This document shows, one piece after another, positions 21 through 13,489 of a stretch of 13,570 bases of DNA. The notes beneath the pieces are model-generated. The model worked only from the letters and a program-made list of their open reading frames with translations. It did no database searches and was not told the origin of the DNA. The translations under genes and the position numbers were made by a program. How positions within the stretch are numbered: the stretch's first letter is position 1; each line of letters opens with the position of its first letter. Origin of the DNA: a virus (Duplodnaviria; Heunggongvirae; Uroviricota; Caudoviricetes); IMG/VR virus record IMGVR_UViG_2731957955_000008; one strand, given 5' to 3'.

Positions 21-893
21 TTGTCAATATTAATTCTTTTTATTACTCCGTTTGTAGCAAAAAATCTAAGCAGTGACAATATAAAATATAGTCTTAATAT
101 TATACAATACTCGCTGAATCGTCATTTGTCGACGTGGAATACCGTGTACACCAAAATAATATCAGTATTTTGGCTTGTATTACTTATCAGCTCATGCATC
201 AGCATACGTAATTACTCAAAAATATGGTTGTGTATAATACTTATTAGTATAGTGTCAGTATGCAATAATCTAATTTTATTGTATTTTATTGATCAATCCC
301 ATCCTGCATGGTACATGACAAAATTTCTTGAATTGATATCAATGATTTATATCATTTCAACACTCATGTATTATGTTTTCAGGAAATTAAATCATGCTAA
401 TCATATGGCAATTCATGATCCACTAACGAATACATACAATAGAAGATACTTTATTGACTCATTGAAGAATATATCAAAACACCATGATTTCTCAGTAATA
501 ATGTTAGATATTGACAATTTCAAAAGCATCAATGACAAATGGGGGCATCATATGGGTGATCAAGTCATAGTAATGGTTACCAGAATAATAAAAAAATCTA
601 TCAGGAAAGAGGATATATTAGGGCGCTTAGGCGGTGAGGAGTTCGGTATTATCATTAAAGGTAATACTCAAAAGCTCTTGCTATCAATTGCAGAGCGAAT
701 CAGAAAAAACATTGAAGAGCAATGCTCGGAAAAATTATTATCGCATGGACCTGAGAAAATAACTGTCAGTATTGGTTGCTTTACTTCAAAAGAGAATAAT
801 CTCAGTCCATCTGAAATGTTAGTCAATGCCGATAAAGCGTTATATCAAGCCAAAAGAACCGGAAAAAACAAGGTGATAACTCACTCAAAATAA
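21..893 (+). CDS. Membrane-anchored GGDEF-domain diguanylate cyclase (putative c-di-GMP synthase); phage cargo (moron) gene
   Basis: Translation shows about four hydrophobic helices in the first ~125 aa, then a complete GGDEF domain: DPLTNTYNRRYF, DIDNFKSINDKWGHHMGD, an RKED I-site five residues before GGEEF (nt ~630-644), and ADKALYQAKRTGKNKV. The ORF track starts at a TTG (21), but the frame is open back to nt 3, so the true start may lie upstream of the window. The region is strongly AT-rich compared with the tail genes and is convergent with tfa. Confidence 0.85.
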   Translation: MSILILFITPFVAKNLSSDNIKYSLNIIQYSLNRHLSTWNTVYTKIISVFWLVLLISSCISIRNYSKIWLCIILISIVSVCNNLILLYFIDQSHPAWYMTKFLELISMIYIISTLMYYVFRKLNHANHMAIHDPLTNTYNRRYFIDSLKNISKHHDFSVIMLDIDNFKSINDKWGHHMGDQVIVMVTRIIKKSIRKEDILGRLGGEEFGIIIKGNTQKLLLSIAERIRKNIEEQCSEKLLSHGPEKITVSIGCFTSKENNLSPSEMLVNADKALYQAKRTGKNKVITHSK

Positions 894-966: not shown

Positions 967-1551
967 CTATTCGATAATGGGTACTGTTGGCCATTCAATA
1001 TCCGGTGCAGTTGTTGTATTAACACGGTTCAGCAACACCCGATACTTCTTCCAGGCTTCCAGCAACGAGGTTTCTTCCTCCGTTGCAATTTCCAGATCTG
1101 CAGCATCCTGAAGCGGCGCAATATGCTCACTGGCTACCTGCATCAGGCTGTTTTTTGTTTCTTCCGCCTCCCGGATCCGGAACAGTTTTTCTGCTTCTGC
1201 ATCTTTCACCCAGGCTGTGCCGTTCCACTTCTGATATTCCCCTCCCGGCGACAACCAGGTAACATTTTCCGGTAACGGACCGAGTTCAGAAATAAATAAC
1301 GCGTCGCCGGAAGCCACGTCATAAACCGTTTTACCCCGATGGTCTTCAACGAGATGCCACGATGCCTCATCACTGTTGAAAACAGCCACGAAGCCTGCCG
1401 GAATATCCGGCGGTGCAATATCGGTACTGTTTGCTGGCAGACCTGTATGAGACGGAATATATGCATCACCTTCACCAATAAATTCATTAGTTCCGGCCAG
1501 CAGATTATAAATTTTTATGGTCCGTGGTTGTTCACTCATTCTGAATGCCAT
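967..1551 (-). CDS. tfa: Tail fibre assembly protein (lambda Tfa family)
   Basis: 194-aa ORF beginning [33 protein letters not shown], matching lambda Tfa in length and N-terminus as I recall it. Its ATG overlaps the stf stop as TAATG (1549-1553), indicating translational coupling. Confidence 0.95.
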
Positions 1552-4500
1552 TATGCAAGCCTCACAATATAGTTAAATGCGATGTTTTTGACGGTGTTTT
1601 CCGCGTTACCCGCAGCGTTAACGGTGATGGTATGTCCATGTGAGCCAATCGCAACGGAGTGCGTATGAGCACCAATACCGACAGTATGTGCATGTGCGCC
1701 TGCGCTTGCAGCAGTGCCGGACAGCGAGTGGGTATGAGCACCATCTGATGATGTCTTCCCTGCATTACGAGTCTGGCCACTACCGCTTGTTGTGCTCATA
1801 ATCCCCGCGCTTAGATTTGAAATCGCAGTATAACCATTAGGAAAAATGCTCGTGTTCGTGCCACCAAATGCACCGGAACTCTTGTGTTGGTGCGCACCGG
1901 CACTATTTGCTGTCCCGCTAATACTATGGGTATGTGCACCAGTGTTATTCGTGGATTTAGTGCCGTAATCAAAAGATGATGTGGTTTTCGTCCCCAAATC
2001 CGTACTGGATGCGCTGGCGCTGTGGGTATGCGATTTAATGCCATCCTGTTCCTGAGACAATACGGCACGACCACTGGCGGGCTTGCCCTTAATCGTCCAG
2101 CCACGCATATCAGGGATCACGCCTGACGGATAAGCGGCTGCAAGTTTCGGGTAAGCAGATTTGTCAAAAGTCTGCCCCTGCATCAGGGCATAACCAGACG
2201 GAACGGTATCTGATGGCCACGGGATTGGTGCACCGACTGGATAAAACTCTGCAGGAGGATGAGCCGAGGTGTAAAGCTGCGCCCACGGCGACCAGTTTGC
2301 GTCGGTCATATCCCGTCGTGAACGAATAAATGCCGGAGCATGAGCACCGCTTGTACCACTCCAGCCGATGAGTAACTCACCTTCGCCAACGGCTGTCATC
2401 CCTTTCAGGTGAATGATATTTCCATACGCTGTTGGATATCCGTTGTTATACACCTCGTATAACTCAAGACCTGCTGCCCCCTGCGTATTGTCTGTCAGCG
2501 CGGTTACCCGACCTTTTGAAGCCAGATTAACTGATGATACTGCTGTTCCACCTGACGGTAACGCCCCGATCTCTGATGCCGTTGGCTTATTTCTGGAGTT
2601 ATAGTCCCTTCGCCAGCCAGGTGAATAATCTGTTCCGTGATTAATATAGGTAAACTGGGCGTTAGTTGTTCCACCACCAGTGGAGGTGGTCGGTGTGGTA
2701 ATGCGGATCGTCATCGCTGACTTTATCCCCATTACTTCAATGACAGCTCCGGCGAGATGAATATTACCGCAGTCAGTATCAGTAATGATTTTATTATTGC
2801 CATAAGACCAGGACCCCTTGCACATCCAGTAGGGATGGTTAAATGCTCCCTGAGAATCCAGCCACTCGATAAACTGTGCAGTCGTCCAGTTTCCTGTTGT
2901 TGTGCTTACTGACCCACCGAAGGCACGGCAGGCACCAATATTTTTCGTAAAGGTGTCTTTGCCAGGGATATCCGCACCGTTCTGATCTTTCTGCAGACGT
3001 TTCTCAGCATTGTCATTGGCTGCTTTTACTGCCTTTGGCGTTGCCGCCAGCGTTTCAGACGTGCTGTTGGTCGCGCTGCTTAACTGGATTATCCCTTTCT
3101 GTGCTGTCGTTGCATCCTGTGCGGTGTATTTCCCGTTAGCCAGGTCATACGCGGCCTTAACGGCTTTTGGCGTTGCCGCCTGTGACTCGGAAGTGCTGTT
3201 GGTCGCACTACTGAGCTGGACTATCCCCTTTTTCGTCGTGCTCGCATCCTCAAGCGCCACGGCGGATGCAATATCCTCTGCCCGTTTTGCCGCTGTCTCG
3301 GCGCGCGTTGCCGCGGTTTCTGCCGTACTTTTGCTCTGTGCTGCCGCTGTCGCACTGCCAGCAGCCTCTGTCGCCTTCGTGGATGCTGTCGTGGCGCTGC
3401 CCTTCGCTGCTGACGCCTGTCTGGTCGCCTCATCTTTTGAAGCTGACGCCGATGATGCCGATGAAGCCGCCGAACTGGCGGACGATGCGGCAGCCGTTTT
3501 TGAGGATTCTGCGCTGGTTTCCGACGCTTTCGCGTTCGTCTCGGATGTCTTCGCTGCGGAAGCAGACCTCGCTGCTGCACTGGCCTGTTCAGTGGCTTCG
3601 CCAGCCTTCGTTGTGGCTGTTGAAGCAGACGAGGCGGCACTTTCTGCCGACTTTCCGGCAGCGGTGGCACTGGCTGAGGCCTGCCCGGCACTTGTTGAGG
3701 CGGCACTGGCAGATGATGCAGCCGCTGTTTTTGAGCCTGCCGCAGCTGAGGCACTCTGTCCCGCTGCCGTTTCAGAAGACCTGGCGTTCGTCTCAGACGT
3801 CTTTGCCGCCTTCGCGGAATTTCCTGCCGCCGTTGCCGAGGAAGCGGCACTACTGGCGCTTGATGATGCGTTCGTTTCTGATGATTTCGCTGCCTCTTTT
3901 GAGGCCGCCGCATCCCGGGCTGAGGTGGCAGCTTCTGACGCCTTTGTGGTCGCTGCGGATGCAGAAGTGGCTGTAGATTTTTGTGACGCTGCCGCATTCG
4001 TTTCTGACGTTTTCGCCGCACCGGCACTGGTAGCTGCCGCGCTTTTTGAGGACTCTGCAGCGGCAGCACTTTTTGATGCTTCAGTAGCCTTTGTTGATGC
4101 CGTTCCTGCGCTGGAAGACGCTGACTGAGCCGACGTCGCGGCCTGCCCGGCTGATGTGCTGGCTGCGCGTGCTGAGCCTGCAGCATCAGTCGCATGGGTT
4201 GCCGCCTCACGTGCTGATGTGCCGGCATCGCTGGCTGACTTCTTCGCGGCTGCCGTGTTCTGTGCCACCGCGGACGCGTTACGCGCCACCTCTTCCACCA
4301 TCAGTTCAAAACGGCGCAGTGCCTCAGGACGGGCATCATCCTCCGTCATGGCACCGAGAAAATCATTCAGCGTACCGGGTCGGGAATCTTCATACACGGT
4401 GATGGTCCCGGCATGTGACGGCGGGAATCCCTCCACCAACAGAATAACGCTGTACTGCCCGTACTCAACGTCCATGCTGTAACGCCCGGCTTCATCCGGA

Positions 4501-4625
4501 TTTTCTGAGGCCAGCGTGTTCACCACCACCGTGGTGCTGTTACGTTTTGCTTTCAGCTGGATTGTGCAGTTCTGTACCGGTTTTCCTGTGCCGTCTTTCA
4601 GTACACCTGAAATCTTTACTGCCAT
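1551..4625 (-). CDS. stf: Side tail fibre protein (lambda Stf family), intact, long mosaic form of ~1024 aa
   Basis: N-terminus [26 protein letters not shown] is Stf-like. It is followed by a long Ala/Ser/Thr-rich repeat region with three KTSETNA units, two tandem fibre-repeat motifs ([26 protein letters not shown] and [26 protein letters not shown]), a Cys/Trp-containing central domain, and a C-terminal His-box region ending [12 protein letters not shown] place the start at the ATG at 4623-4625, preceded by GGGGTG; the ORF track begins at an in-frame GTG two codons upstream (4631). Confidence 0.93.
3038..3250 (-). repeat. Imperfect direct DNA repeat (~85-95 bp units, ~130 bp apart) inside stf, encoding the two tandem fibre-repeat motifs
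   Basis: Unit 1 (~3038-3125) and unit 2 (~3168-3250) share long near-identical runs, e.g. ttggcgttgccgcc and gtgctgttggtcgc(g/a)ct(g/a)ct(t/g)a(a/g)ctgga(t/c)tatccc. This was read directly from the sequence. Confidence 0.7.
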
Positions 4626-4634
4626 ATTCACCCC

Positions 4635-4663
4635 ACAAAAAAGCCCGCCTGAACCGGCGGGCT
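4635..4663 (-). terminator. Rho-independent terminator downstream of lom, immediately upstream of stf
   Basis: On the minus strand there is a perfect 8-bp GC-rich stem (agcccgcc / ggcgggct, + coordinates 4642-4649 and 4656-4663) with a 6-nt loop, followed by TTTTTGT. The T-tract runs into the stf ribosome-binding site. Confidence 0.55.
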
Positions 4664-4689
4664 GTCATAACACTGTGTTACCTGGCTAA

Positions 4690-5289
4690 TCAGAATTTAT
4701 AACCGACACCCACGATGAAACCGTCAGTGCGCCAGTCACCACTGCCGGAGCCTTCATAAGCAATATCAATGGCCACGGATTCGGTCGGGTTAAACTGCAC
4801 GCCAGCCCCCCACGCCAGAGACGTGTTGCTGTGGCGACCGTCATCACTTCCGGTCAGCACATCGTGCTTTTTCCCCTTGTTGTCAGTTACGCGAAGATAA
4901 TCCCCGGAGAAAGTCGACACACGGCTGTAAGCTACACCCGCCATCGCATACGCGCTGAACCATTCATTTACGCGCACAGACGGCCCCGCCATTACGCTGA
5001 ACCAGCGGTTACGCACGGAATCTTCATGCCAGCGGGTATCGCTGTAACGGGTCAGCTGGCGATTCTTGTCTCCTGCATAGCTGAATGACGTCACCAGCCC
5101 CAGTGTGTCCGTAAACTCATAACGGTATTTCACGTTAATCCCGTTCAGATCATCACTGCCGGGGACGTTCGTCGAGGCATGAAGATACCCCGCGCTCAGC
5201 GTGGACTGATGTTCAGACGCCCATGCAGGCGCACCGGATACGGCCAGACAAATGGCTGCGGACAAAATTGCTGCACAAACTTTACGCAT
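4690..5289 (-). CDS. lom: Lom outer-membrane protein (Ail/Lom beta-barrel family), lysogenic-conversion moron
   Basis: 199-aa ORF MRKVCAAILSAAICLAVSGAPAWASEHQSTLSAGYLHAS with a signal peptide, alternating amphipathic strands and a C-terminal GVGYKF typical of outer-membrane barrels. It sits between J and stf exactly as in lambda and is bracketed by hairpins on both sides. Confidence 0.95.
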   Translation of the reverse strand: MRKVCAAILSAAICLAVSGAPAWASEHQSTLSAGYLHASTNVPGSDDLNGINVKYRYEFTDTLGLVTSFSYAGDKNRQLTRYSDTRWHEDSVRNRWFSVMAGPSVRVNEWFSAYAMAGVAYSRVSTFSGDYLRVTDNKGKKHDVLTGSDDGRHSNTSLAWGAGVQFNPTESVAIDIAYEGSGSGDWRTDGFIVGVGYKF

Positions 5290-5359: not shown

Positions 5360-8300
5360 TCAACGAATACTGATGCCGGAAGCGGCTTTTTTGGTCACAA
5401 TCACCGTACAGTCGGTGATATTGCCTGCCCCCTGATTGCCTTTCTGGAAAATCTTAAACTCCAGAGTGACGCTTCCCCTGCCACTCGGCATATCAATAAC
5501 TGCACTGTAACTACCGGGAATGGCCCCTTTAGTTTCTCTGGATGCGATTAATACGCCGTTTTTGCGAACTTCAAAACCATAACCCGTGTATCGCGTGCCT
5601 CCTGGGTTATTTCCGCTCCCCGGATCGTCATACGCTATACCGTTAAAAATAATGGGCGGAATAATAATCTGGCGGTCAAAGTTATGATCATCGCTGATGG
5701 TGACTGTAACCGTACCGTTTGGTGTTTCCGTGTTACCCCACGTACCGACTTTTTTCGGGAAGGCTTTTGATACAGCTTTAACGAAATCTCCTCTGACCTG
5801 GGTCGCCTCCAGCATGCCCTTAATCGTACAGTTCTGGTTAATCGTGACATTGTTGAGCGTTCCTGAGTTCGCATTCACACTGCCACTGATATCCGCATTT
5901 TTCGCCGTCAGTCTCCCGTCTGATGTCAGGGAAAATGCCGGAGGATTACCGCCGCTGGTAATGGTGGGGGCCGTCAGGCGTTTCAGGAACACTTCATTCA
6001 TGAATATCTGATCGCCCTGACCAACAAACATCGGCTTTGTGTTGCCATTCGCAGGATTAATCATCGCAATCCTGTCTGCTGCCAGCAGCACCTGACTCTG
6101 CATGCCGTCAGGGGTGTTCTCAATACCGGCACCGATACCCGCAATATAAAGGCGTCCGTCCTGCATCTGCTGCAGCTTCACTGCCCACATGCTGTTCAGG
6201 TTATTATTTGTATCAACCTGAACCTTCTGTATCTGCTGGATCGCTGCACTCTGGTCTTCCAGTTTCTTATTGACGGTCTGTGTTATTTCATTGCTGACAT
6301 CCGTTATGGACGTCCTGATTTCAGTCAGGTCAGGCGCAAGCTGACCGTTATCAATCTGCGTCCACAGCTCCTGAGCCAGATGGGTTTTCCCTATCTCGCC
6401 TTTGAAAAAATCCAGATAGCCTGATGCATCATCACTCGGCTGACCGACAGCCTCCACGAATGCCGATTTGCCAACGGTGTTCACACTGCGAACGTAAAAA
6501 TAATAATCATGGCCCGGTTTGATATTGATACTGGCGGCTATCCAGTACAGTGCCGTACCAAGATAACGCGCGCTGGTTTCAACCTGCCTGATATCCGCAA
6601 TCCGTTTTTCCGAGAACCAGAACTCAAACTGTACCGTCGGGTCATAAACCGCAAGATGCGGCGTGGCGGTTATCTGAAAATAGCCCGGCGTCAGCTCAAT
6701 CCGCGACGGCGCTGCCGGTGCGGCAATCCGGAACGATACCGACGCCGGATCGCCCTGCTGCCCCCACGCATTTACTGCCCGGACTGTCAGCCTGTAGTTC
6801 CCCAGAGCCAGTTGTGTGAAGCGGTAAGTGGTTTCCGTCGTCCGGGCCGTGCTGACCAGCCGCTCACGGCCGTCATCCGCTGCCACGGTCAGGCGAAGCA
6901 GGAAGCTCACGCCCTTCACCACCTTCGGCGTGTCCCAGCGCGCCAGCACCTGGTATTCCCCGCTGTCTGCGGTGACTTCTGCGGTCAGGTGCTGCACCGC
7001 TGGCGGCGTGACACCATTTACCGTGCCGCTCTGGTCGCCGTCAAAGTGCGCCCCGTTATCCACGATGGCCTCTTTTTCCGGTACATGCTGCACGGCGGTG
7101 ATGGCATACGTGCCGTCGTCGTTCTCACGGATACTCACGCAGCGGAACAGGCGCTGGCGCAACGTCGGCAGCTTCAGCCCCCATACGCTGTATTCAGCAA
7201 CGCCGTCAGGAACACGGCTCACTTTCACCTTCACGCCGTCGGTGACGGACTGAACCTCCACGCTGACCGGATTACCACTTCCGTCAACCAGGCTTATCAG
7301 CGTGGTACCGGAGGATGGCAGCGTGATTTCACGGTCGAGCGTCAGCGTCCGGGTCTGGCTGTTCACCGCCAGCACGCGCCCGCCGGTGCGGATACCGGCA
7401 TAGTCATCATCGCAGATTTCAATGACATCGCCCGGTACATGGCGAAGCCCTTCGGCACCCACGCTGAAGTCCACGGTCTGCGTTTCCAGCAGTTCTGTTT
7501 TAATCAGCCACAGCCCGGCGCGGTGTGCCTGCCCCCGGCTGGTACAGCCAAAAGCATCCATCTTCGTGACGTTACGACCGTAACGGGCAATGGCCTGCGT
7601 GTCCTCCACAAGCTCTGTCGCCGTCTCCCAGCCGTTATTCGGGTCAATCCAGTTCACCTCAACGGCATTATGGCGGTCCTTCAGGGCGCTGAAGCTGTAG
7701 CGGAACGGCGCACCATCATCCGGCATCACCACATTACTGCGGTTATAGGTCCACACCTTATCCGACGGTCGGTCCTGCACGAACGTCAGCGTCTGCCCGT
7801 TCCATACCGGCATACAGCGCATCGCAGAGCAGAAATCACTGAGCACATCCCACGCCTTACGCTGTGTGGTCAGCCAGGCATTACAGGTGATGCGCGGCTC
7901 CGTGCCGCCAAAGCCGTCCGGCACTGACTGGTCGCAGTACTGGCCGATAAGATACAGCGCCCATTTATCCACATCCACCGCACCAAGACGTTTCCCCATG
8001 CCGTAGCGCGGATGGGTCAGCATATCCCACAGACACCAGGCCGNGTTGTTGCTGTATGCCGGTTTAAACGTTCCGTCCCAGATACCGCTGTATTGCCGCG
8101 TCTGCGGGTTATAATTCGACGGCACCTGCAGAATACGCCCGCGCAGATGATAATTACGGCTCACCTGCTGGCTGCCGAACTGCTCCGAGTCCACCTGCAC
8201 GCCGACCAGTGCCGTGTTCGGGTAGCACTGTTTCACATCGATAATTTCGGTGTATGACGACCAGAGCGTTTTGTTCTGCAGCTGGTCTGTGGTGCTGTCC

Positions 8301-8857
8301 GGCGTCATCCTGCGCATCCGGATATTAAACGGGCGCGGCGGCAGGTTATCCACCACCACCGAGGCCAGATACTGTGAAGTGGTTTTACCCTTAATGGTGA
8401 TGTCTTTTTCCGTCACCCAGCCACCGTTACGTTGTATCTGAACCAGCAGGCGGACTTCCGATGGATTCCTGTCCCCCTTTGAGGTGGTTTCCACCAGTGC
8501 CTGCACGCCGAAAGTAAAACGCAGACGGTCAATGTTTGCCGACGTGATGGTCCGGGTGATCGGCGTGTCATATTTCACTTCTGTACCGAGCACCGTCTCG
8601 GAGCCGGAGGATTCAAATCCCTCCGGCGGTGTCTGCTCCTGCTCACCGGCCCGGAACACCACCGTGACGCCGGATATATTGGTATTCCCCTCACTGTCCA
8701 GCACCGGCGTACTGTTCAGCAGCACGCTTTTTAATCCATCCACCGGACCTTCAACCGGCCCTTCGCTGATGGCATCGATCACACTCAGCAGCTGCGTGGA
8801 CTTCAGGTTNTCNTTCGCTTCGCGCGGGGTATGCCCCTTACTGCTGCCTTTACCCAT
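5360..8857 (-). CDS. J: Tail tip / host-specificity protein J (central tail fibre)
   Basis: 1165-aa ORF beginning [14 protein letters not shown], in the expected position after I and before lom. Lambda J is 1132 aa as I recall, so this is a length variant. Several X residues come from N bases (e.g. 8043, 8810, 8813). Confidence 0.95.
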
Positions 8858-8879
8858 TCNTCANGCTCCATAAANGANA

Positions 8880-8899
8880 AAACCGCCCGNAGGCGGTTT
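8880..8899 (-). promoter_or_regulatory. Perfect 8-bp stem-loop in the I-J intergenic spacer, just upstream of the J ribosome-binding site
   Basis: aaaccgcc (8880-8887), loop cgna, ggcggttt (8892-8899). On the minus strand it is followed by a T-rich tract, a GGAG-like SD and the J ATG at 8857. Ambiguous bases in and around the loop limit certainty. Confidence 0.3.
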
Positions 8900-8917
8900 C
8901 ACATAAAACATTTTGCA

Positions 8918-9589
8918 TCAGCGACCAATCACCACAACCTGACCACCGTCCCCTTCGTCTGCCGTGCTGATCTCCTGAGAAACCACGCGTGACCCCACGC
9001 GCATTTCNCCGTACAGAACNGGCAGAACATTGCCCTGGGCAACCATGTTATCCAGTGAGGAGAAATAGGTGTTCTGNTTNCCGTTATCCGTTGTCTGTGT
9101 ACGGGGAGTTCTGGCTTTCGGTGCCAGCATCTGCGCCACACCACCGAGCACCATACTGGCACCGAGAGAAAACAGGATGCCGGTCATACCACCGGCCCCA
9201 ATGGCTGCCCCCCATGCTGCAAGGGTGGCTCCGGCGGTAAAGAATGATCCGGCAATGGCGGCAGCCCCCAGGACAATCTGGAATACGCCACCTGACTTGG
9301 CCCCGGCGACTCTGGGAACAATATGAATCACAGCGCCATCAGGCAGAGTCTCATGTAACTGCGCCGTTAACCCGGACGTGCTGACGTCCCGCCCGGCAAT
9401 CCGTACCTGATACCAGCCGTCGCTCAGTTTCTGACGAAACNCCGGGAGCTGTGTGGCCAGTGCNCGGATGGCTTCAGCCCCCGTTTTCACACGAAGGTCG
9501 ATGCGGCGGCCAAATCGTTGCAAATCCCCGTAAAGGCAGATGCGCGCCATGCCCGGTGACGCCAGAGGGAGTGTGTGCGTCGCTGCCAT
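8918..9589 (-). CDS. I: Tail tip assembly protein I
   Basis: 223-aa ORF MAATHTLPLASPGMARICLYGDLQRFGRRIDLRVKTGAEAI with a Gly/Ala-rich hydrophobic middle and a C-terminus ending QVVVIGR. Its length and 103-nt overlap with the end of K match the lambda arrangement as I recall it. Confidence 0.93.
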   Translation of the reverse strand: MAATHTLPLASPGMARICLYGDLQRFGRRIDLRVKTGAEAIXALATQLPXFRQKLSDGWYQVRIAGRDVSTSGLTAQLHETLPDGAVIHIVPRVAGAKSGGVFQIVLGAAAIAGSFFTAGATLAAWGAAIGAGGMTGILFSLGASMVLGGVAQMLAPKARTPRTQTTDNXXQNTYFSSLDNMVAQGNVLXVLYXEMRVGSRVVSQEISTADEGDGGQVVVIGR

Positions 9590-10230
9590 TTGTCGGTATA
9601 CCTCTCTCGTTTGCTCAGTTGTTCAGGAATATGGTGCAGCAGCTCGCCATCACCACAGTAAATGGCGGCATGATTCGGCACCGATGAACCAAAACAGCAC
9701 AGCAGCACATCGCCCGGCTGCGCCGCTGACAACGGCACCTGATACAGCCCTGTGGCCTCCAGATTATCCAGATAGAGATTCTGACCGTGACGCCACCAGT
9801 TATCCCCGCGATGAAAATCCGGCATCTCAATTCCCGCCAGATGGTAAGCGTCCCGGAACAGCGTGTAACAGTCCGTTACCCCGTGCTCAAAGCGCCGCCC
9901 GGTGAGATGCGGCACACAGCGGAATTTATGAATCGCCACCCGGCAGACCAGCCACCACGGCAAATCACTCTGTACCTGCAGCCGCCGGTCGGCCTCACTC
10001 AGCCAGGGCAGACCACCGGGGTGGCTGTGGACCAGCGCCACAATCTCTCCCTGCATTTCTGCACTCAGCCAGTCCTCCGGCGACATCCGGAAATACTCCT
10101 CCGGCTCACCGGAGATATTCACNCAGGGAAAATATCTTTCCTCCTCCGGCGTTCTCACCACGAAGCCGCACGACTCCGCTGGCGCACATCGCCGGGCGTG
10201 CGCCAGAATCGCTGATTCTGTCTCTGTCAT
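9487..10230 (-). CDS. K: Tail tip assembly protein K (N-terminal MPN/JAMM metalloprotease-like domain plus C-terminal NlpC/P60-like domain)
   Basis: 247-aa ORF beginning MTETESAILAHARRCAPAESCGFVV. It contains a full JAMM signature (HSHPGGLPWLSEAD, i.e. HxHx7Sx2D, with a candidate upstream Glu in PAESCGFVV) and an NlpC/P60-like Cys/His region (GVTDCYTLFRDAYH, NHAAIY, HHI). The ATG at 10228-10230 lies 5 nt after the L stop. An internal ATG at 10084-10086 would give the classical 199-aa lambda K. Confidence 0.9.
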   Translation of the reverse strand: MTETESAILAHARRCAPAESCGFVVRTPEEERYFPXVNISGEPEEYFRMSPEDWLSAEMQGEIVALVHSHPGGLPWLSEADRRLQVQSDLPWWLVCRVAIHKFRCVPHLTGRRFEHGVTDCYTLFRDAYHLAGIEMPDFHRGDNWWRHGQNLYLDNLEATGLYQVPLSAAQPGDVLLCCFGSSVPNHAAIYCGDGELLHHIPEQLSKRERYTDKWQRRTHSLWRHRAWRASAFTGICNDLAAASTFV

Positions 10231-10235
10231 GGGAT

Positions 10236-10934
10236 TTACTGCGAAAGTTTGTTAATGGAAAGGAAGCTGCCAAAGTTGCCGACATTATTGCGAAACTTAC
10301 AGCCACTCAGGCATTTGCTGCATTTATCCTTCGTGATATCGGACGTCGGCTGGTCATATTCATCCGCGACCGCCGGACCGCTATAACCGCACTCATCGCC
10401 GCGATAGGTCCAGGTGCAGGTGTTGGCCAGCATGATACGTCCCGGAAAAACAGCGCCATCCGTTTCAGTCGGCGTGGACAGTACAAAAGAGGCACTGACC
10501 GCGCTCAGTTCGCTGCACTGCTCGATGCGCCAGCGGCTGATCACCTCCTGCTCCGGATCGGCTTCGCTGTTTCCGTTGACGAAGTTCACCGCATCCAGAA
10601 AGCGGGCGTAAACCTTACGCCGGACCACCGTTCCGCCGACCAGACTCTGCAGATCTTCCGCCATCCCGGTGATCATGCCGTACAGGTTAGAAACCGTCAG
10701 CGTGGGGCGCGTACTGGTGCCTTTGCCATTCAGTTCAAAACCGCTCCCCTGAATGGGATACGGCTGATACTGTCGCCCCTGCCAGGTGACCGGCTCACCT
10801 TTTTCGTTCTGCTCATTACAGAAAAAATAACGTTCTCCACCGACCTCTGTCAGNTCGATTTCCCAGAGCACCACGCTGGCCGACTGCTCCGCACGGGTGC
10901 ATTCATTCAGTGTTTCCTGCCGGATATCCTGCAT
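10236..10934 (-). CDS. L: Tail tip protein L
   Basis: 232-aa ORF MQDIRQETLNECTRAEQSASVVLWEI with a C-terminal cysteine cluster (CTWTYRGDECGYSG, then KCSKCLSGC) consistent with the Fe-S site described for lambda gpL. Its start overlaps the M stop as ATGA at 10931-10934. Confidence 0.95.
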   Translation of the reverse strand: MQDIRQETLNECTRAEQSASVVLWEIXLTEVGGERYFFCNEQNEKGEPVTWQGRQYQPYPIQGSGFELNGKGTSTRPTLTVSNLYGMITGMAEDLQSLVGGTVVRRKVYARFLDAVNFVNGNSEADPEQEVISRWRIEQCSELSAVSASFVLSTPTETDGAVFPGRIMLANTCTWTYRGDECGYSGPAVADEYDQPTSDITKDKCSKCLSGCKFRNNVGNFGSFLSINKLSQ

Positions 10935-11263
10935 CAGTTCACCACCTGTTCAAACTCTGCGCTGAACTCAACACGCAGCATACTGACCCGCGACGACCAT
11001 TTTGCGCAGGTCACCTTTATCTGCCGCCACTCATAAGGCGGCGTCCACAGAAAGGATTTCCAGCCCCCGTGCTCTTCCAGAAACGACTCCAGTACCGTGG
11101 CCTCCTCACGGGGGACAGAAAGCGTCACGCTGTACGTTTTCAGGTTGGCATTCAGCCCGGCAGGCGCTCGCTGAGAATAGCCATCACCAAAGCGCACCTT
11201 TCTTACAGAAGGGACCGAAGCCACATCCATACCGGGTTTCACTTTCCAGCGGAAGGTCTTCAT
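10934..11263 (-). CDS. M: Tail tip protein M
   Basis: 109-aa ORF MKTFRWKVKPGMDVASVPSVRKVRFGDGYSQRAPAGLNANLKTYSV, the lambda M length. Its ATG overlaps the stop of the H C-terminal frame as ATGA at 11260-11263. Confidence 0.95.
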   Translation of the reverse strand: MKTFRWKVKPGMDVASVPSVRKVRFGDGYSQRAPAGLNANLKTYSVTLSVPREEATVLESFLEEHGGWKSFLWTPPYEWRQIKVTCAKWSSRVSMLRVEFSAEFEQVVN

Positions 11264-11697
11264 CGTCCACCTCCGGAGAACAGGCCACCATCACGCATCT
11301 GTGTCTGAATTTCATCACGGGCACCCTTGCGGGCCATGTCATACACCGCCTTCAGAGCAGCCGGACCTATCTGCCCGTTCGTGCCGTCGTTGTTAATCAC
11401 CACATGGTTATTCTGCTCAAACGTCCCGGACGCCTGCGACCGGCTGTCTGCCATGCTGCCCGGTGTACCGACATAACCGCCGGTGGCATAGCCGCGCATC
11501 AGCCGGTAAAGATTCCCCACGCCAATCCGGCTGGTTGCCTCCTTCGTGAAGACAAACTCACCACGGTGAACAATCCCCGCTGGCTCATATTTGCCGCCGG
11601 TTCCCGTAAATCCTCCGGTTGCAAAATGGAATTTCGCCGCAGCGGCCTGAATGGCTGTACCGCCTGACGCGGATGCGCCGCCACCAACAGCGTTCCT
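11260..11697 (-). CDS. H: Tape measure protein H, C-terminal segment (second frame of a disrupted H gene)
   Basis: This frame is open from just after a TGA at 11698-11700 down to the stop at 11260. By my own translation it encodes AVGGGASASGGTAIQAAAAKFHFATGGFTGTGGKYEPAGIVHRGEFVFTKEATSRIGVGNLYRLMRGYATGGYVGTP, continuing to the ORF-track ending DGGLFSGGGR, a Gly-rich tape-measure C-terminus. Confidence 0.8.
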   Translation of the reverse strand, partial: RNAVGGGASASGGTAIQAAAAKFHFATGGFTGTGGKYEPAGIVHRGEFVFTKEATSRIGVGNLYRLMRGYATGGYVGTPGSMADSRSQASGTFEQNNHVVINNDGTNGQIGPAALKAVYDMARKGARDEIQTQMRDGGLFSGGGR

Positions 11698-13489
11698 TCA
11701 GGCGCTGTTCCGTGGCTTCCCGTTCTGCCTGCCGGTCAGTCAGCCCCCGGCTTTTCGCATCAATGGCGGCCCGTTTTGCCCGTTGCTGCTGTGCGAATTT
11801 ATCCGCCTGCTGCGCCAGCGCGTTCAGGCGCTCCTGATACGTAACCTTGTCGCCAAGTGCAGCCAGCTGGCGTTTGTACTCCAGCGTCTCATCTTTATGC
11901 GCCAGCAGGGATTTCTCCTGTGCAGACAGCTGGCGACGTTGCGCCGCCTCCTCCAGTACCGCGAACTGACTCTCCGCCTTCCACAAATCCCGGCGCTGCT
12001 GGCTGATTTTCTCATTTGCTCCGGCATGCTTCTCCAGCGTCCGGAGTTCTGCCTGAAGCGTCAGCAGGGCAGCATGANCACTGTCTTCCTGACGATCGCC
12101 CGCAGACACCTTCACGCCGGACTGTTTCGGCTTTTTCAGCGTCGCTTCATAATCCTTTTTCGCCGCCGCCATCAGCGTGTTGTAATCCGCCTGCAGGATT
12201 TTCCCGTCTTTCAGTGCCTTGTTCAGTTCTTCCTGACGGGCGGTATATTTCTCCAGNGGCGTCTGCAGCCGTTCGTAAGCCTTCTGCGCCTCTTCGGTAT
12301 ATTTCAGCCGTGACGCTTCGGTATCGCTCTGCTGCTGCGCATTTTTGTCCTGTTGANTCTGCTGCTCAGCCTTCTTTCGGGCNGCTTCAAGCGCAAGACG
12401 GGCCTTTTCACGATCATCCCAGTAACGCGCCCGCGCTTCATCGTTAACAAAATAATCATCCTTGCGCAGATTCCAGATNTCGTCNGCTTTCTTAAACGCN
12501 GCCTCTGCCTTAATCAGCATCTCCTGCGCGGTATCAGGACGACCAATATCCAGCACCGCATCCCACATGGATTTGAATGCCCGNGCNGTCCTGTCTGCCC
12601 AGGTNTCCAGCGTGCCCATGTTCTCTTTCANGCGNCGGGTCTGGTCATCAAACCCTTTCGTTGCGGCCTCGTTCGCCGCCTGCAATGCCCCGGCTTCATC
12701 GCCGGAACGCTGCAACTGAGCAACATACGCAATCTGCTCCGCCGTCACGTTATGNAACTGGCGTGCCATCGCCGTCAGCCCCGACGTCGGGTCTGTGGTC
12801 AGCTTCCCGAAGGCTTCAGCGACCTTGTCCACCTCCACGCCGGATGCAGAGGAGAAACGCGCCACACTCTGGCTGATGGACGCAATCTGAGCCTCACCGC
12901 TTACCCCCGCCTTAACCAGTGCGCTGAGTGACTCGCTGGTCTGGTTAAACGTCAGCCCTGCCGCCTGCCCGGCTCTGGACAGGACCAGCATACGATCTGC
13001 CGTCAGTCCCGCCTGATTGCCGGAAAGGACCAGCGTTTTGTTGAAATCGGACAGGGTTGAGTTGCCCTGATACCAGGCATACGCCAGCGCNCCGGTCGCC
13101 ACCGCCAGCGAGGTNGCCCCCACCATCGGCAGGGTGATCGCACCGGCAAGCCCCCNGAACATGGGGATCATCCCGCCGAAGGAGTCCTTNACCTGACCNC
13201 CCTGTTGCAGCAGGATCAGCCACGGACTTTGCCCGCCTGCAAGCTGCGTGGCCACGTCNGTGAACTGNGCAGGCAGCATACGCATGGCGGCTTTATACTG
13301 CCCGACGGAAATNCCCGCTTTCTGTGCAGCCAGCGCCTGNCGGNTCANCGACTGTTCAACGACTGCCGCTGTTTTTTTCGCATCACTTTCCGTACCGGAA
13401 AAATGACGCCTGACTCTGGCCATCTGCTCGTCAAATCTGGCCGCATCCAGACTCAAATCAACGACCAGATCGCCTACCGGTTCAGCCAT
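11585..13489 (-). CDS. H: Tape measure protein H, N-terminal segment (frame leaves the H reading frame near nt 11692; tail of ORF is out-of-frame read-through)
   Basis: 634-aa ORF beginning MAEPVGDLVVDLSLDAARFDEQMARVRRHFSGTESDAKK with coiled-coil-rich, tape-measure-like content through ...ATEQRLKE. The last 35 aa (RCWWRRIRVRRYSHSG...) are Arg/Cys-rich nonsense. Many X residues come from N bases between 12067 and 13348. Confidence 0.85.
   Translation of the reverse strand: MAEPVGDLVVDLSLDAARFDEQMARVRRHFSGTESDAKKTAAVVEQSXXXQALAAQKAXISVGQYKAAMRMLPXQFXDVATQLAGGQSPWLILLQQXGQXKDSFGGMIPMFXGLAGAITLPMVGXTSLAVATXALAYAWYQGNSTLSDFNKTLVLSGNQAGLTADRMLVLSRAGQAAGLTFNQTSESLSALVKAGVSGEAQIASISQSVARFSSASGVEVDKVAEAFGKLTTDPTSGLTAMARQXHNVTAEQIAYVAQLQRSGDEAGALQAANEAATKGFDDQTXRXKENMGTLXTWADRXXRAFKSMWDAVLDIGRPDTAQEMLIKAEXAFKKXDXIWNLRKDDYFVNDEARARYWDDREKARLALEXARKKAEQQXQQDKNAQQQSDTEASRLKYTEEAQKAYERLQTXLEKYTARQEELNKALKDGKILQADYNTLMAAAKKDYEATLKKPKQSGVKVSAGDRQEDSXHAALLTLQAELRTLEKHAGANEKISQQRRDLWKAESQFAVLEEAAQRRQLSAQEKSLLAHKDETLEYKRQLAALGDKVTYQERLNALAQQADKFAQQQRAKRAAIDAKSRGLTDRQAEREATEQRLKERCWWRRIRVRRYSHSGRCGEIPFCNRRIYGNRRQI

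What the first reader, a model, noticed from the sequence alone, without database searches (positions are those of the whole stretch)
1551..4625. Intact, extended mosaic side tail fibre with duplicated fibre repeats
At ~1024 aa the Stf is a single uninterrupted ORF, unlike laboratory lambda where stf is frameshifted, and is longer than the ~774-aa ancestral lambda Stf as I recall. It has a long low-complexity Ala/Ser/Thr shaft, two tandem fibre-repeat motifs that are also repeated at the DNA level (3038-3250), and a central Cys/Trp-containing domain ([32 protein letters not shown]) that I would expect to derive from a different lambdoid fibre. The repeats are plausible recombination substrates for fibre module exchange.
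Basis: partly seen in the sequence, partly recalled or inferred. Interest (0 to 1): 0.5.

Follow-up and report, generated by a model that had tools for sequence, protein, structure and literature searches.

The report
Mosaic lambda-type prophage side tail fibre
This is an intact side-tail-fibre gene of a lambda-like prophage of the E. coli 55989/O104:H4 lineage, stitched together from modules also found in phages lambda, P2, Mu, P1 and T4; it is a clear but ordinary example of a textbook phenomenon.

Summary
A single 1024-aa ORF on the minus strand (1551-4625) lies between lom and tfa in a lambda-type tail operon. It has two tandem Phage_fiber_2 repeats that are also detectable at DNA level.

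The protein is a chain of modules:
- a lambda Stf N-terminal collar domain;
- a coiled-coil shaft of 48 unbroken heptads (lambda has 33);
- two 44-aa fibre-repeat units;
- a Cys/Trp module shared with Mu S', P2 H and P1 Sv' (PDB 8JU3);
- a second knob-like module shared with P1 Sv', SSU5 and Vibrio phages;
- a T4 gp37-type collar, needle and tip with seven HxH motifs (PDB 2XGF).

Among isolated phages the best match changes along the protein. The centre is 99.6% identical to PhiR42_1 and the tip is 100% identical to mEp332.

Relatives with a single repeat carry R1-head/R2-tail hybrid units. Their switch points fall in the two longest runs of exact R1/R2 identity, which supports the repeats as crossover sites.

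None of this is new in kind. The protein is identical to an annotated RefSeq protein in 17 complete genomes, and at least 80% of the gene is present in 636 of 5426 complete E. coli genomes. Fibre module exchange has been documented since 1989-1994, and engineers already fuse lambda Stf to P2 H at the same junction. Interest is low.

The parts
1551..4625 (-). stf coding sequence (1024 aa plus stop), the side tail fibre
   Evidence: ORF list and translation. 100% identical to the annotated CDS WP_001387657.1 in E. coli 55989.
4224..4625 (-). N-terminal tail-attachment domain, aa 1-134 (collar domain about aa 1-91 plus linker)
   Evidence: Pfam PF08400 phage_tail_N, E 1.4e-71. PDB 9E7M/9MGH Ur-lambda Stf collar chain, aa 1-94, E 1.3e-51.
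3258..4268 (-). Coiled-coil shaft, aa 120-456: 48 heptads of the form A-x-x-S-A-x-x in one unbroken register
   Evidence: Lag-7 autocorrelation z = 10. DNA repeat spacings are multiples of 21 nt. Lambda has 33 heptads and the other panel fibres have 48. The proximal coiled coil is described for Ur-lambda in PMC12617516.
3123..3254 (-). Fibre-repeat unit R1, aa 458-501
   Evidence: Pfam PF03406, DNA repeat family D2, unit alignment.
2991..3122 (-). Fibre-repeat unit R2, aa 502-545
   Evidence: Pfam PF03406. 64% nt identity to R1 over the unit and 78% over the core. Longest exact runs are 15 and 14 nt.
2541..2990 (-). Module A, aa 546-695: Cys/Trp-containing domain shared with Mu S', P2 H and P1 Sv'
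   Evidence: PDB 8JU3 Mu fibre, aa 539-695, domain E 2.8e-68. tblastn: P2 81%, Mu about 70-72%, P1 73%. blastn contiguous with P2 H over aa 459-682 at 77%.
2247..2540 (-). Module B, aa 696-793: beta-rich knob-like domain shared with P1 Sv', SSU5, Goslar and Vibrio phage fibres
1554..2246 (-). T4 gp37-type collar, needle and tip, aa 794-1024, with seven HxH motifs
   Evidence: PDB 2XGF, E 5.2e-83 over aa 794-1024. Pfam Collar PF07484, aa 798-845. HxH at aa 866, 898, 912, 964, 978, 987 and 996.
1746..1910 (-). Hypervariable tip cassette, aa 906-960, between HxH motifs 3 and 4; presumed receptor-contact region
   Evidence: The only strongly divergent stretch against PhiR42_1. blastn homology gaps at aa 906-960 in PhiR42_1, PhiR34_1, 2H10 and PhiR29_1. 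The whole last 230 aa are 100% identical to mEp332.
967..1551 (-). tfa, tail fibre assembly chaperone (194 aa); its start overlaps the stf stop
   Evidence: Pfam PF02413, E 2.2e-42. 95% identical to lambda Tfa and 97% to mEp332 Tfa.

Best explanation
WHAT IT IS. This is the side tail fibre gene (stf), with its chaperone gene tfa, of a lambda-like prophage integrated at att-lambda in the E. coli 55989/O104:H4 lineage.

HOW IT MOST LIKELY WORKS (inferred from the Ur-lambda and T4 gp37 structures).
- The protein is a homotrimer. The N-terminal domains of four trimers (twelve chains) form a collar at the junction of tail tube and tail tip.
- A 48-heptad coiled coil, roughly 50 nm long by helix geometry, holds the distal part away from the tail.
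- Two 44-aa fibre-repeat units, a Mu S'/P2 H-type domain (module A) and a gp34-like knob (module B) replace lambda's hinge and distal segment.
- A gp37-type needle follows, with seven HxH motifs that probably bind metal ions, ending in a variable tip.
- The tip binds a cell-surface receptor reversibly, probably a porin such as OmpC, or LPS. This speeds adsorption before J binds its own receptor.
- Tfa assists folding of the distal part.

HOW IT AROSE. The gene was assembled by homologous recombination at short conserved stretches that flank the modules: the core of the fibre repeat, the [15 protein letters not shown] motif, and the collar/HxH boxes.

SHOWN VERSUS INFERRED. The module map, the changing best hits and the hybrid repeat units are shown here. 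Trimer state, metal binding, receptor identity and function in a virion are inferred.
For: Gene context J-lom-stf-tfa, with an att core beyond the cargo gene.

Pfam domains phage_tail_N, 2x Phage_fiber_2, Collar and Caudo_TAP.

PDB sequence matches: 9E7M aa 1-94, 5YVQ aa 492-568, 8JU3 aa 539-695, 2XGF aa 794-1024.

Heptad periodicity z = 10, with 48 against 33 heptads.

Segment-wise best hits differ: PhiR42_1 for the centre, mEp332 for the tip.

mEp332, PhiR34_1 and 2H10 carry a different middle section between about aa 565 and 766-784.

One-unit relatives are R1/R2 hybrids with switches in the 14-nt and 15-nt identity runs.

Modules A and B are in the opposite order in P1 Sv'.

Published support. 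Ur-lambda Stf architecture and OmpC binding are in PMC12617516. Stf exchange among unrelated phages is called 'well documented' in PMC3945230. A working lambda(1-393)-P2 H(251-end) chimera is reported in PMC11338833.
Against: No experiment here shows that the fibre is expressed, assembled or functional.

The receptor cannot be read from the sequence. The tip cassette aa 906-960 differs from both lambda and T4.

In this window the tape-measure gene H lacks 332 nt relative to complete genomes and is frameshifted. If that is real, this copy of the prophage could not build tails. The 40 isolated Ns in the same region suggest a draft-assembly artefact instead.

The direction of the repeat-number change cannot be decided: deletion from two units, or gain by recombination with a P2-like array.

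Confidence: 0.85

Rival explanations
1. The two fibre repeats are a recent in-place tandem duplication within this gene, which is how the first reader's title reads.
For: The two units are adjacent, in phase (132 nt) and detectable at DNA level at 75% over 107 nt. Close relatives such as PhiR29_1 have only one unit.
Against: Over the whole unit, R1 and R2 are only 64% identical. Their last 11 residues are unrelated: [11 protein letters not shown] against [11 protein letters not shown]. The R1-tail/R2-head linker is the same as the inter-unit linker of the four-unit P2 H array. P2 H DNA aligns contiguously across both units and module A at 77%. PhiR42_1 has the same two units at 96-97% identity. 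Two-unit forms are also common in other E. coli prophages, including those of O157:H7.
Confidence: 0.05
2. Module exchange at the boundary near aa 565 was driven by site-specific Gin/Cin/Pin invertases acting on a crossover site, rather than by homologous recombination. The gene would then be, or have been, part of an invertible segment.
For: The breakpoint with mEp332, PhiR34_1 and 2H10 (aa 565...FTKNIGA|C...) aligns with the position where Mu's gix site encodes FIQNLGLQE. Module A lies inside the invertible C segment of P1 and just after the gix position in Mu. PhiR42_1, PhiR34_1 and 2H10 carry a Pin-type serine recombinase gene just after tfa. PMC3945230, citing Sandmeier, attributes fibre exchange to invertases.
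Against: The window DNA at that position matches only about 11 of 26 bases of the Mu gix site, counted by eye. No invertase gene follows tfa here; the next gene is a diguanylate cyclase. No inverted alternative fibre segment is present in the window. The repeat-unit hybrids switch within runs of sequence identity, which is the mark of homologous recombination.
Confidence: 0.1
3. The ORF is an intact but functionless relic in a defective prophage. Alternatively it is kept for a host benefit such as masking a receptor against other phages, not for building virions.
For: In the window, gene H lacks 332 nt and is frameshifted. A prophage-derived Stf chimera, StfE2, has been reported to block T2 adsorption (PMC12529663). 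Many E. coli genomes carry several stf copies, median 3 places per genome.
Against: Complete genomes of the same lineage have an uninterrupted tail operon as annotated, including an 853-aa tape measure. All twelve best complete-genome hits contain the 332 nt. The window has 40 isolated Ns in the J-to-H region, as expected for a draft consensus. stf and tfa have no Ns and no disruptions. Near-identical fibres occur in phages recorded with propagation hosts, such as PhiR42_1 and PhiR29_1.
Confidence: 0.1

Closest known systems
Ur-lambda side tail fibre Stf (774 aa; PDB 9E7M/9MGH; PMC12617516)
   Same: Same gene position (J-lom-stf-tfa). N-terminal domain and first 352 aa are 80% identical. Both have a coiled-coil shaft, one homologous fibre-repeat unit and a gp37-type C-terminus (69% identical). 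Tfa is 95% identical.
   Different: The shaft is 15 heptads (105 aa) longer. There are two repeat units instead of one. Lambda's hinge and distal segment (about aa 397-529) are replaced by modules A and B, aa 546-793. The tip cassette differs, and lambda has an extra FDYGTKTTGS repeat and an extra HxH unit.
Stf of isolated lambdoid phages PhiR42_1, mEp460, PhiR26_1 and PhiR68_2 (about 1025 aa)
   Same: Same full architecture, including both repeat units and modules A and B. PhiR42_1 is 93% identical at protein level and 96.7% at DNA level over aa 1-906.
   Different: The tip cassette aa 901-960 and a short shaft patch at aa 300-320 differ from PhiR42_1. The last 230 aa are only 79.5-79.9% identical in all four phages. 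The window's tip is instead identical to that of mEp332.
P2 tail fibre H, Mu S' and P1 S' (variable part Sv'), myophage fibres; PDB 8JU3 and 5YVQ
   Same: P2 H shares the fibre-repeat array with an identical inter-unit linker, followed by module A: 77% nt identity, contiguous over aa 459-682. Mu S' and P1 Sv' share module A, and P1 Sv' also has module B.
   Different: Their N-termini attach to contractile-tail baseplates, not to a lambda tail. Their distal tips are unrelated to gp37. P1 has B before A. The P2 H variant examined has four repeat units. In Mu and P1 the module lies in an invertible segment.
T4 long tail fibre distal tip, gp37 (PDB 2XGF)
   Same: Collar domain, needle with HxH motifs and C-terminal strand match over aa 794-1024 at E 5e-83. 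The motif count of seven equals the seven iron sites of the gp37 structure; that figure is from my own knowledge of Bartual et al. 2010.
   Different: The tip cassette between HxH motifs 3 and 4 is longer and unrelated in sequence. T4 uses gp57A/gp38 for assembly, whereas this fibre has a lambda-type Tfa.
Engineered lambda-P2 STF chimera (PMC11338833)
   Same: It joins lambda Stf 1-393 (just after the fibre repeat) to P2 H from residue 251. This is the same junction type as the natural lambda-shaft to P2-like join seen here.
   Different: The engineered fibre keeps the P2 tip, which binds LPS. The natural one continues into module B and a gp37-type tip.

Membership tests
Lambda-type side tail fibre (Stf) | N-terminal phage_tail_N domain that forms the collar on the tail | tested here: met
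   PF08400, E 1.4e-71, full length 1-134. Ur-lambda collar chain 9E7M/9MGH, aa 1-94, E 1.3e-51.
Lambda-type side tail fibre (Stf) | Gene lies after J and lom and is followed directly by a tfa chaperone gene | tested here: met
   ORF order on the minus strand is J 5360-8857, lom 4690-5289, stf 1551-4625, tfa 967-1551. RefSeq shows the same order.
Lambda-type side tail fibre (Stf) | Long proximal coiled-coil shaft | tested here: met
   48 heptads in register, z = 10. 86% nt identity to lambda over aa 1-302. Trimeric state was not tested.
Lambda-type side tail fibre (Stf) | Binds OmpC and accelerates adsorption | not testable with these tools
   Needs adsorption assays. The tip cassette differs from lambda's.
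T4 gp37-type fibre tip | Collar domain followed by a needle with repeated HxH motifs and a conserved C-terminal strand | tested here: met
   2XGF, E 5.2e-83 over aa 794-1024. PF07484 Collar, E 6.5e-12. Seven HxH motifs.
T4 gp37-type fibre tip | Metal ions coordinated by the histidines in the trimer | not testable with these tools
   Inferred from motif conservation only.
Phage_fiber_2 repeat (PF03406) | Match to the roughly 42-aa repeat profile above the curated cut-off | tested here: met
   Two stretches, 125.6 bits against a cut-off of 22. Units at aa 458-501 and 502-545.
Invertible (Gin/Cin/Pin) tail fibre segment | Crossover sites in inverted orientation, an adjacent serine invertase gene and an alternative C-terminal fibre segment | tested here: not met
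   Only about 11 of 26 bases match Mu gix at the homologous position (by eye). No invertase or inverted alternative segment is in the window; the gene after tfa is a GGDEF protein.
T4 gp34 C-terminal trimerisation domain (PF21446) | Match above Pfam's gathering score | tested here: not met

The most novel reading that the evidence does not exclude
The two mid-fibre modules may not be mere spacers. Module A is Mu S'/P2 H-like and module B is a gp34/pyocin-knob-like domain. They could give the fibre a second, independent binding site, for example for LPS sugars, in addition to the gp37-type tip, making it bispecific. A related reading is that the prophage-encoded fibre also protects the lysogen by masking a receptor, as reported for StfE2. 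Nothing here tests either idea. They are only not excluded.
Probability: 0.07. Interest if true: 0.45.

Novelty: already known. Interest (0 to 1): 0.15.

Why it matters
It matters little as a discovery. The protein is already in RefSeq, the architecture is widespread in E. coli prophages, and mosaic fibre evolution is textbook knowledge.

It does have modest practical value. The module map and the natural junctions show where fibres tolerate swaps. Those junctions are the repeat core, the [15 protein letters not shown] motif at about aa 565, the boundary at aa 766-794, and the HxH boxes flanking the tip cassette at aa 906-960. This is useful for engineering lambda-based delivery particles and for predicting the host range of prophages in the O104:H4 lineage.

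The hybrid repeat units are a tidy small example of exchange at 14-15 nt of identity. That fits the relaxed homologous recombination described for lambdoid phages.

Tried and rejected
1. Plus-strand reading. Translating 1551-4625 on the plus strand gives only stops. The gene is on the minus strand.

2. Functional invertase site at the aa 565 boundary. The position aligns with Mu's gix, but the DNA is degenerate (about 11 of 26 bases) and there is no invertase gene. Rejected.

3. A fibre repeat between modules B and A in P1. A loose tblastn alignment suggested this. Translating P1 Sv' shows an ATKLQTA..INGVSFDGS motif there instead. Claim dropped.

4. PDB sequence search with module B found nothing, even at E = 10.

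5. Pfam scan of aa 540-803 at E up to 10 gave only a sub-threshold Gp34_trimer hit.

6. The large protein-database search with module B returned only short, partial or frameshifted proteins, 44 hits. It was useful only as a shallow alignment for AF2. Four junk rows were removed.

7. Counting one-unit against two-unit repeats by coverage in E. coli genomes. The 80% coverage figure mixes both states, because two joined pieces also pass. Only the 30 evenly spaced rows could be read: 15 two-unit, 8 one-unit, 7 partial.

8. Naive positional comparison of the window with 55989 gave 1388 mismatches, caused by the 332-nt gap in H. It was redone with blastn.

9. Literature search for the PhiR/mEp phage collection paper found no paper describing these fibres.
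Full report
1. THE OBSERVATION

The region 1551-4625 holds no ORF on the plus strand. On the minus strand it is one uninterrupted ORF of 1024 aa, with ATG at 4625 and stop at 1551-1553. A GTG lies two codons upstream.

The gene sits in a lambda-type tail operon read on the minus strand: H, M, L, K, I, J (5360-8857), lom (4690-5289), stf, tfa (967-1551).

Pfam finds the following:
- phage_tail_N, aa 1-134, E 1.4e-71;
- two Phage_fiber_2 stretches, E 5e-37;
- a Collar domain, aa 798-845;
- Caudo_TAP in the next gene;
- Ail/Lom in the previous gene.

The DNA-level repeat is real. Positions 3012-3118 and 3144-3250 are 75% identical with 132-nt spacing.

2. WHERE IT COMES FROM AND HOW COMMON IT IS

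- The gene is 100% identical to a CDS in 17 complete genomes of the E. coli 55989/O104:H4 lineage. RefSeq calls it 'prophage tail fiber N-terminal domain-containing protein', WP_001387657.1.
- It is 97-98% identical over its full length in unrelated strains from soil, pig, poultry and cattle.
- 636 of 5426 complete E. coli genomes hold at least 80% of it, and 5179 hold some part.
- The prophage sits at the classic lambda attachment site next to ybhB-bioA. The att core GCTTTTTTATACTAA lies just beyond a diguanylate cyclase cargo gene.

3. MODULE MAP

Residue n starts at window position 4625-3(n-1).

(a) aa 1-134, attachment domain. It matches the Ur-lambda Stf collar chain of PDB 9E7M/9MGH over aa 1-94, E 1.3e-51.

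(b) aa 120-456, shaft. The 'low-complexity' Ala/Ser/Thr stretch is 48 heptads (A-x-x-S-A-x-x) in one unbroken register.
- Lag-7 self-identity is 0.43 against 0.22 in shuffles, z = 10; lag 11 shows nothing.
- DNA repeat spacings are multiples of 21 nt.
- Lambda has 33 heptads. The difference is exactly 15 heptads, or 105 aa.
- PhiR42_1, PhiR29_1, PhiR34_1 and 2H10 all have 48. mEp332 was not measured because its stf is disrupted.
- The Ur-lambda structure paper describes this part as a proximal coiled coil, residues 102-393 (PMC12617516).

(c) aa 458-545, fibre-repeat units. There are two 44-aa units, R1 (window 3123-3254) and R2 (2991-3122).

- It matches the solved Mu fibre 8JU3 over aa 539-695 (domain E 2.8e-68). 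The preceding aa 492-568 match Mu S, PDB 5YVQ.
- By tblastn it is about 81% identical to P2 H, about 70-72% to Mu/D108 S' and 73% to P1 Sv'.

(e) aa 696-793, module B.
- It is found in P1 Sv', RCS47, SSU5, Goslar and many Vibrio phage fibres.
- It has no solved relative by sequence.
- An AF2 model from a 16-row alignment has pLDDT 72 and pTM 0.66, with six strands.
- I read it as a knob-type fibre domain, with moderate confidence.

(f) aa 794-1024, tip. It matches the T4 gp37 tip structure 2XGF at E 5.2e-83. It has seven HxH motifs. From my own knowledge of Bartual et al. 2010, this equals the number of iron sites in gp37.

4. IS IT MOSAIC?

Against intact Ur-lambda-type Stf (774 aa, KT232076):
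- aa 1-352 are 80% identical;
- aa 795-1024 are 69% identical;
- aa 547-794 have no counterpart.

Among isolated phages the best hit changes along the protein:
- PhiR42_1 is 99.6% identical over aa 546-794 but only 79.5% over the last 230 aa. There mEp332 is 100% and ev099 is 99.1%.
- mEp332, PhiR34_1 and 2H10 share aa 1-565 and aa 766/784-1024 with the window. Between those points they carry a different, longer middle section.
- Against PhiR42_1 the only strong divergence is the cassette aa 901-960, between HxH motifs 3 and 4. By analogy with gp37 this is the receptor-contacting tip.
- In P1 Sv', module B lies before module A, so the two are independent, movable units.
- Tfa is conserved across the panel at 92-97%, closest to mEp332.

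5. THE REPEATS

R1 and R2 are 64% identical over the 132-nt unit and 78% over the core.

Their tails differ entirely: [11 protein letters not shown] against [11 protein letters not shown]. The R1-tail/R2-head linker is the same as the inter-unit linker of P2 H. The P2 H variant examined has four units in the same 44-aa phase.

P2 H DNA aligns contiguously across both units and module A, aa 459-682, at 77%. The array is therefore old and shared, not a recent duplication.

Lambda, PhiR29_1, PhiR34_1 and 2H10 each show a single unit on direct inspection. mEp332 is inferred to have one from re-use of subject DNA, and K-12 Rac StfR from its match span.

At the 48 sites that distinguish R1 from R2, the single units of PhiR29_1, PhiR34_1 and 2H10 are R1-like at the 5' end and R2-like at the 3' end, with one switch each.
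- The switch falls in the 14-nt exact-identity run in PhiR34_1 and 2H10.
- It falls in the 15-nt run in PhiR29_1.
- These are the two longest runs shared by R1 and R2.

This is the pattern expected from unequal homologous exchange within the repeat core. The direction, loss or gain of a unit, cannot be decided.

Of 30 evenly spaced hits in E. coli genomes, 15 were two-unit, 8 were one-unit and 7 were partial. Both states are common.

6. INVERTASE RIVAL

The boundary at aa 565 (FTKNIGA|C) aligns with the place where Mu's gix site encodes FIQNLGLQE. Several related phages have a Pin-type recombinase gene after tfa.

In the window, however, the DNA matches only about 11 of 26 gix bases (by eye). 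There is no invertase gene and no inverted alternative segment. Invertase-driven exchange may have shaped this family in the past, as PMC3945230 suggests citing Sandmeier. It is not a feature of this locus now.

7. WHAT IS KNOWN

Exchange of fibre segments among lambda, T4, P2, P1 and Mu is called 'a well documented case' in PMC3945230, citing Montag 1989 and Haggard-Ljungquist 1992.

The Ur-lambda fibre architecture and its OmpC binding are published (PMC12617516).

Engineers fuse lambda Stf 1-393 to P2 H 251-end. That junction lies just after the fibre repeat, where this natural protein switches from lambda-like to P2-like sequence (PMC11338833).

The finding is therefore a correct description of a known kind of object that is already annotated.

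8. VERDICT

Novelty is 'already known' and interest is 0.15.

The small additions made here are:
- the strict 48-heptad shaft, differing from lambda's by a whole number of heptads;
- the hybrid repeat units with switches at 14-15 nt of identity;
- the split of the 'central domain' into two modules that occur in the opposite order in P1;
- the finding that this allele combines a PhiR42_1-type body with an mEp332-type tip.

Noticed in passing
window 11691/11692 (gene H, minus strand ORF 11585..13489): Relative to E. coli 55989 the window lacks 332 nt inside the tape-measure gene H. This is not a multiple of three, so H is frameshifted and truncated: 634 aa against 853 aa. All twelve best complete-genome hits contain the 332 nt, so this is a strain-specific deletion or an assembly artefact.
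   Followed up: partly
window 8044-13348 (40 single positions in J, I, K, L, H): Forty isolated N bases, all in the J-to-H tail genes and none in stf, tfa, lom or the GGDEF gene. Apart from the Ns and the 332-nt gap in H, at most one base differs from 55989. The pattern suggests a draft consensus blurred by several near-identical lambdoid prophages.
   Followed up: partly
window 21-893 (+), cut at the window start; L001 15739-17070: A sensor-domain diguanylate cyclase (GGDEF) gene lies between tfa and the att-lambda core (L001 17711). It is therefore prophage cargo in the position of lambda's b region, not a chromosomal gene.
   Followed up: partly
window 3010-4228, both strands: Long alternative-frame ORFs (3010..4128 +, 372 aa; 3221..4228 -, 335 aa; 3266..3976 +, 236 aa) overlap the shaft-coding DNA. 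Their translations are low-complexity. I take them as by-products of the GCN-rich heptad-repeat coding sequence, not as genes.
   Followed up: no
window 2925-2960 (aa 556-567, [12 protein letters not shown]): The motif [17 protein letters not shown] is a diverged copy of the Mu Sc motif NGADIPNKPLF-IQNLGLQ, whose DNA is the gix crossover site. Mu S' itself carries both copies in tandem. The window copy is degenerate at DNA level, yet it coincides with a natural module boundary.
   Followed up: partly
L007 (mEp332) 1507-4907: The stf of phage mEp332 is annotated as two separate 'hypothetical protein' ORFs (1507-2187 and 2871-4907). It appears disrupted, like laboratory lambda's stf, although its tip is 100% identical to the window's.
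   Followed up: no
L003, L008, L009 (PhiR42_1, PhiR34_1, 2H10), just after tfa: These related phages carry a PinQ/PinR-type serine recombinase gene immediately downstream of tfa. The window prophage has the GGDEF gene there instead.
   Followed up: no
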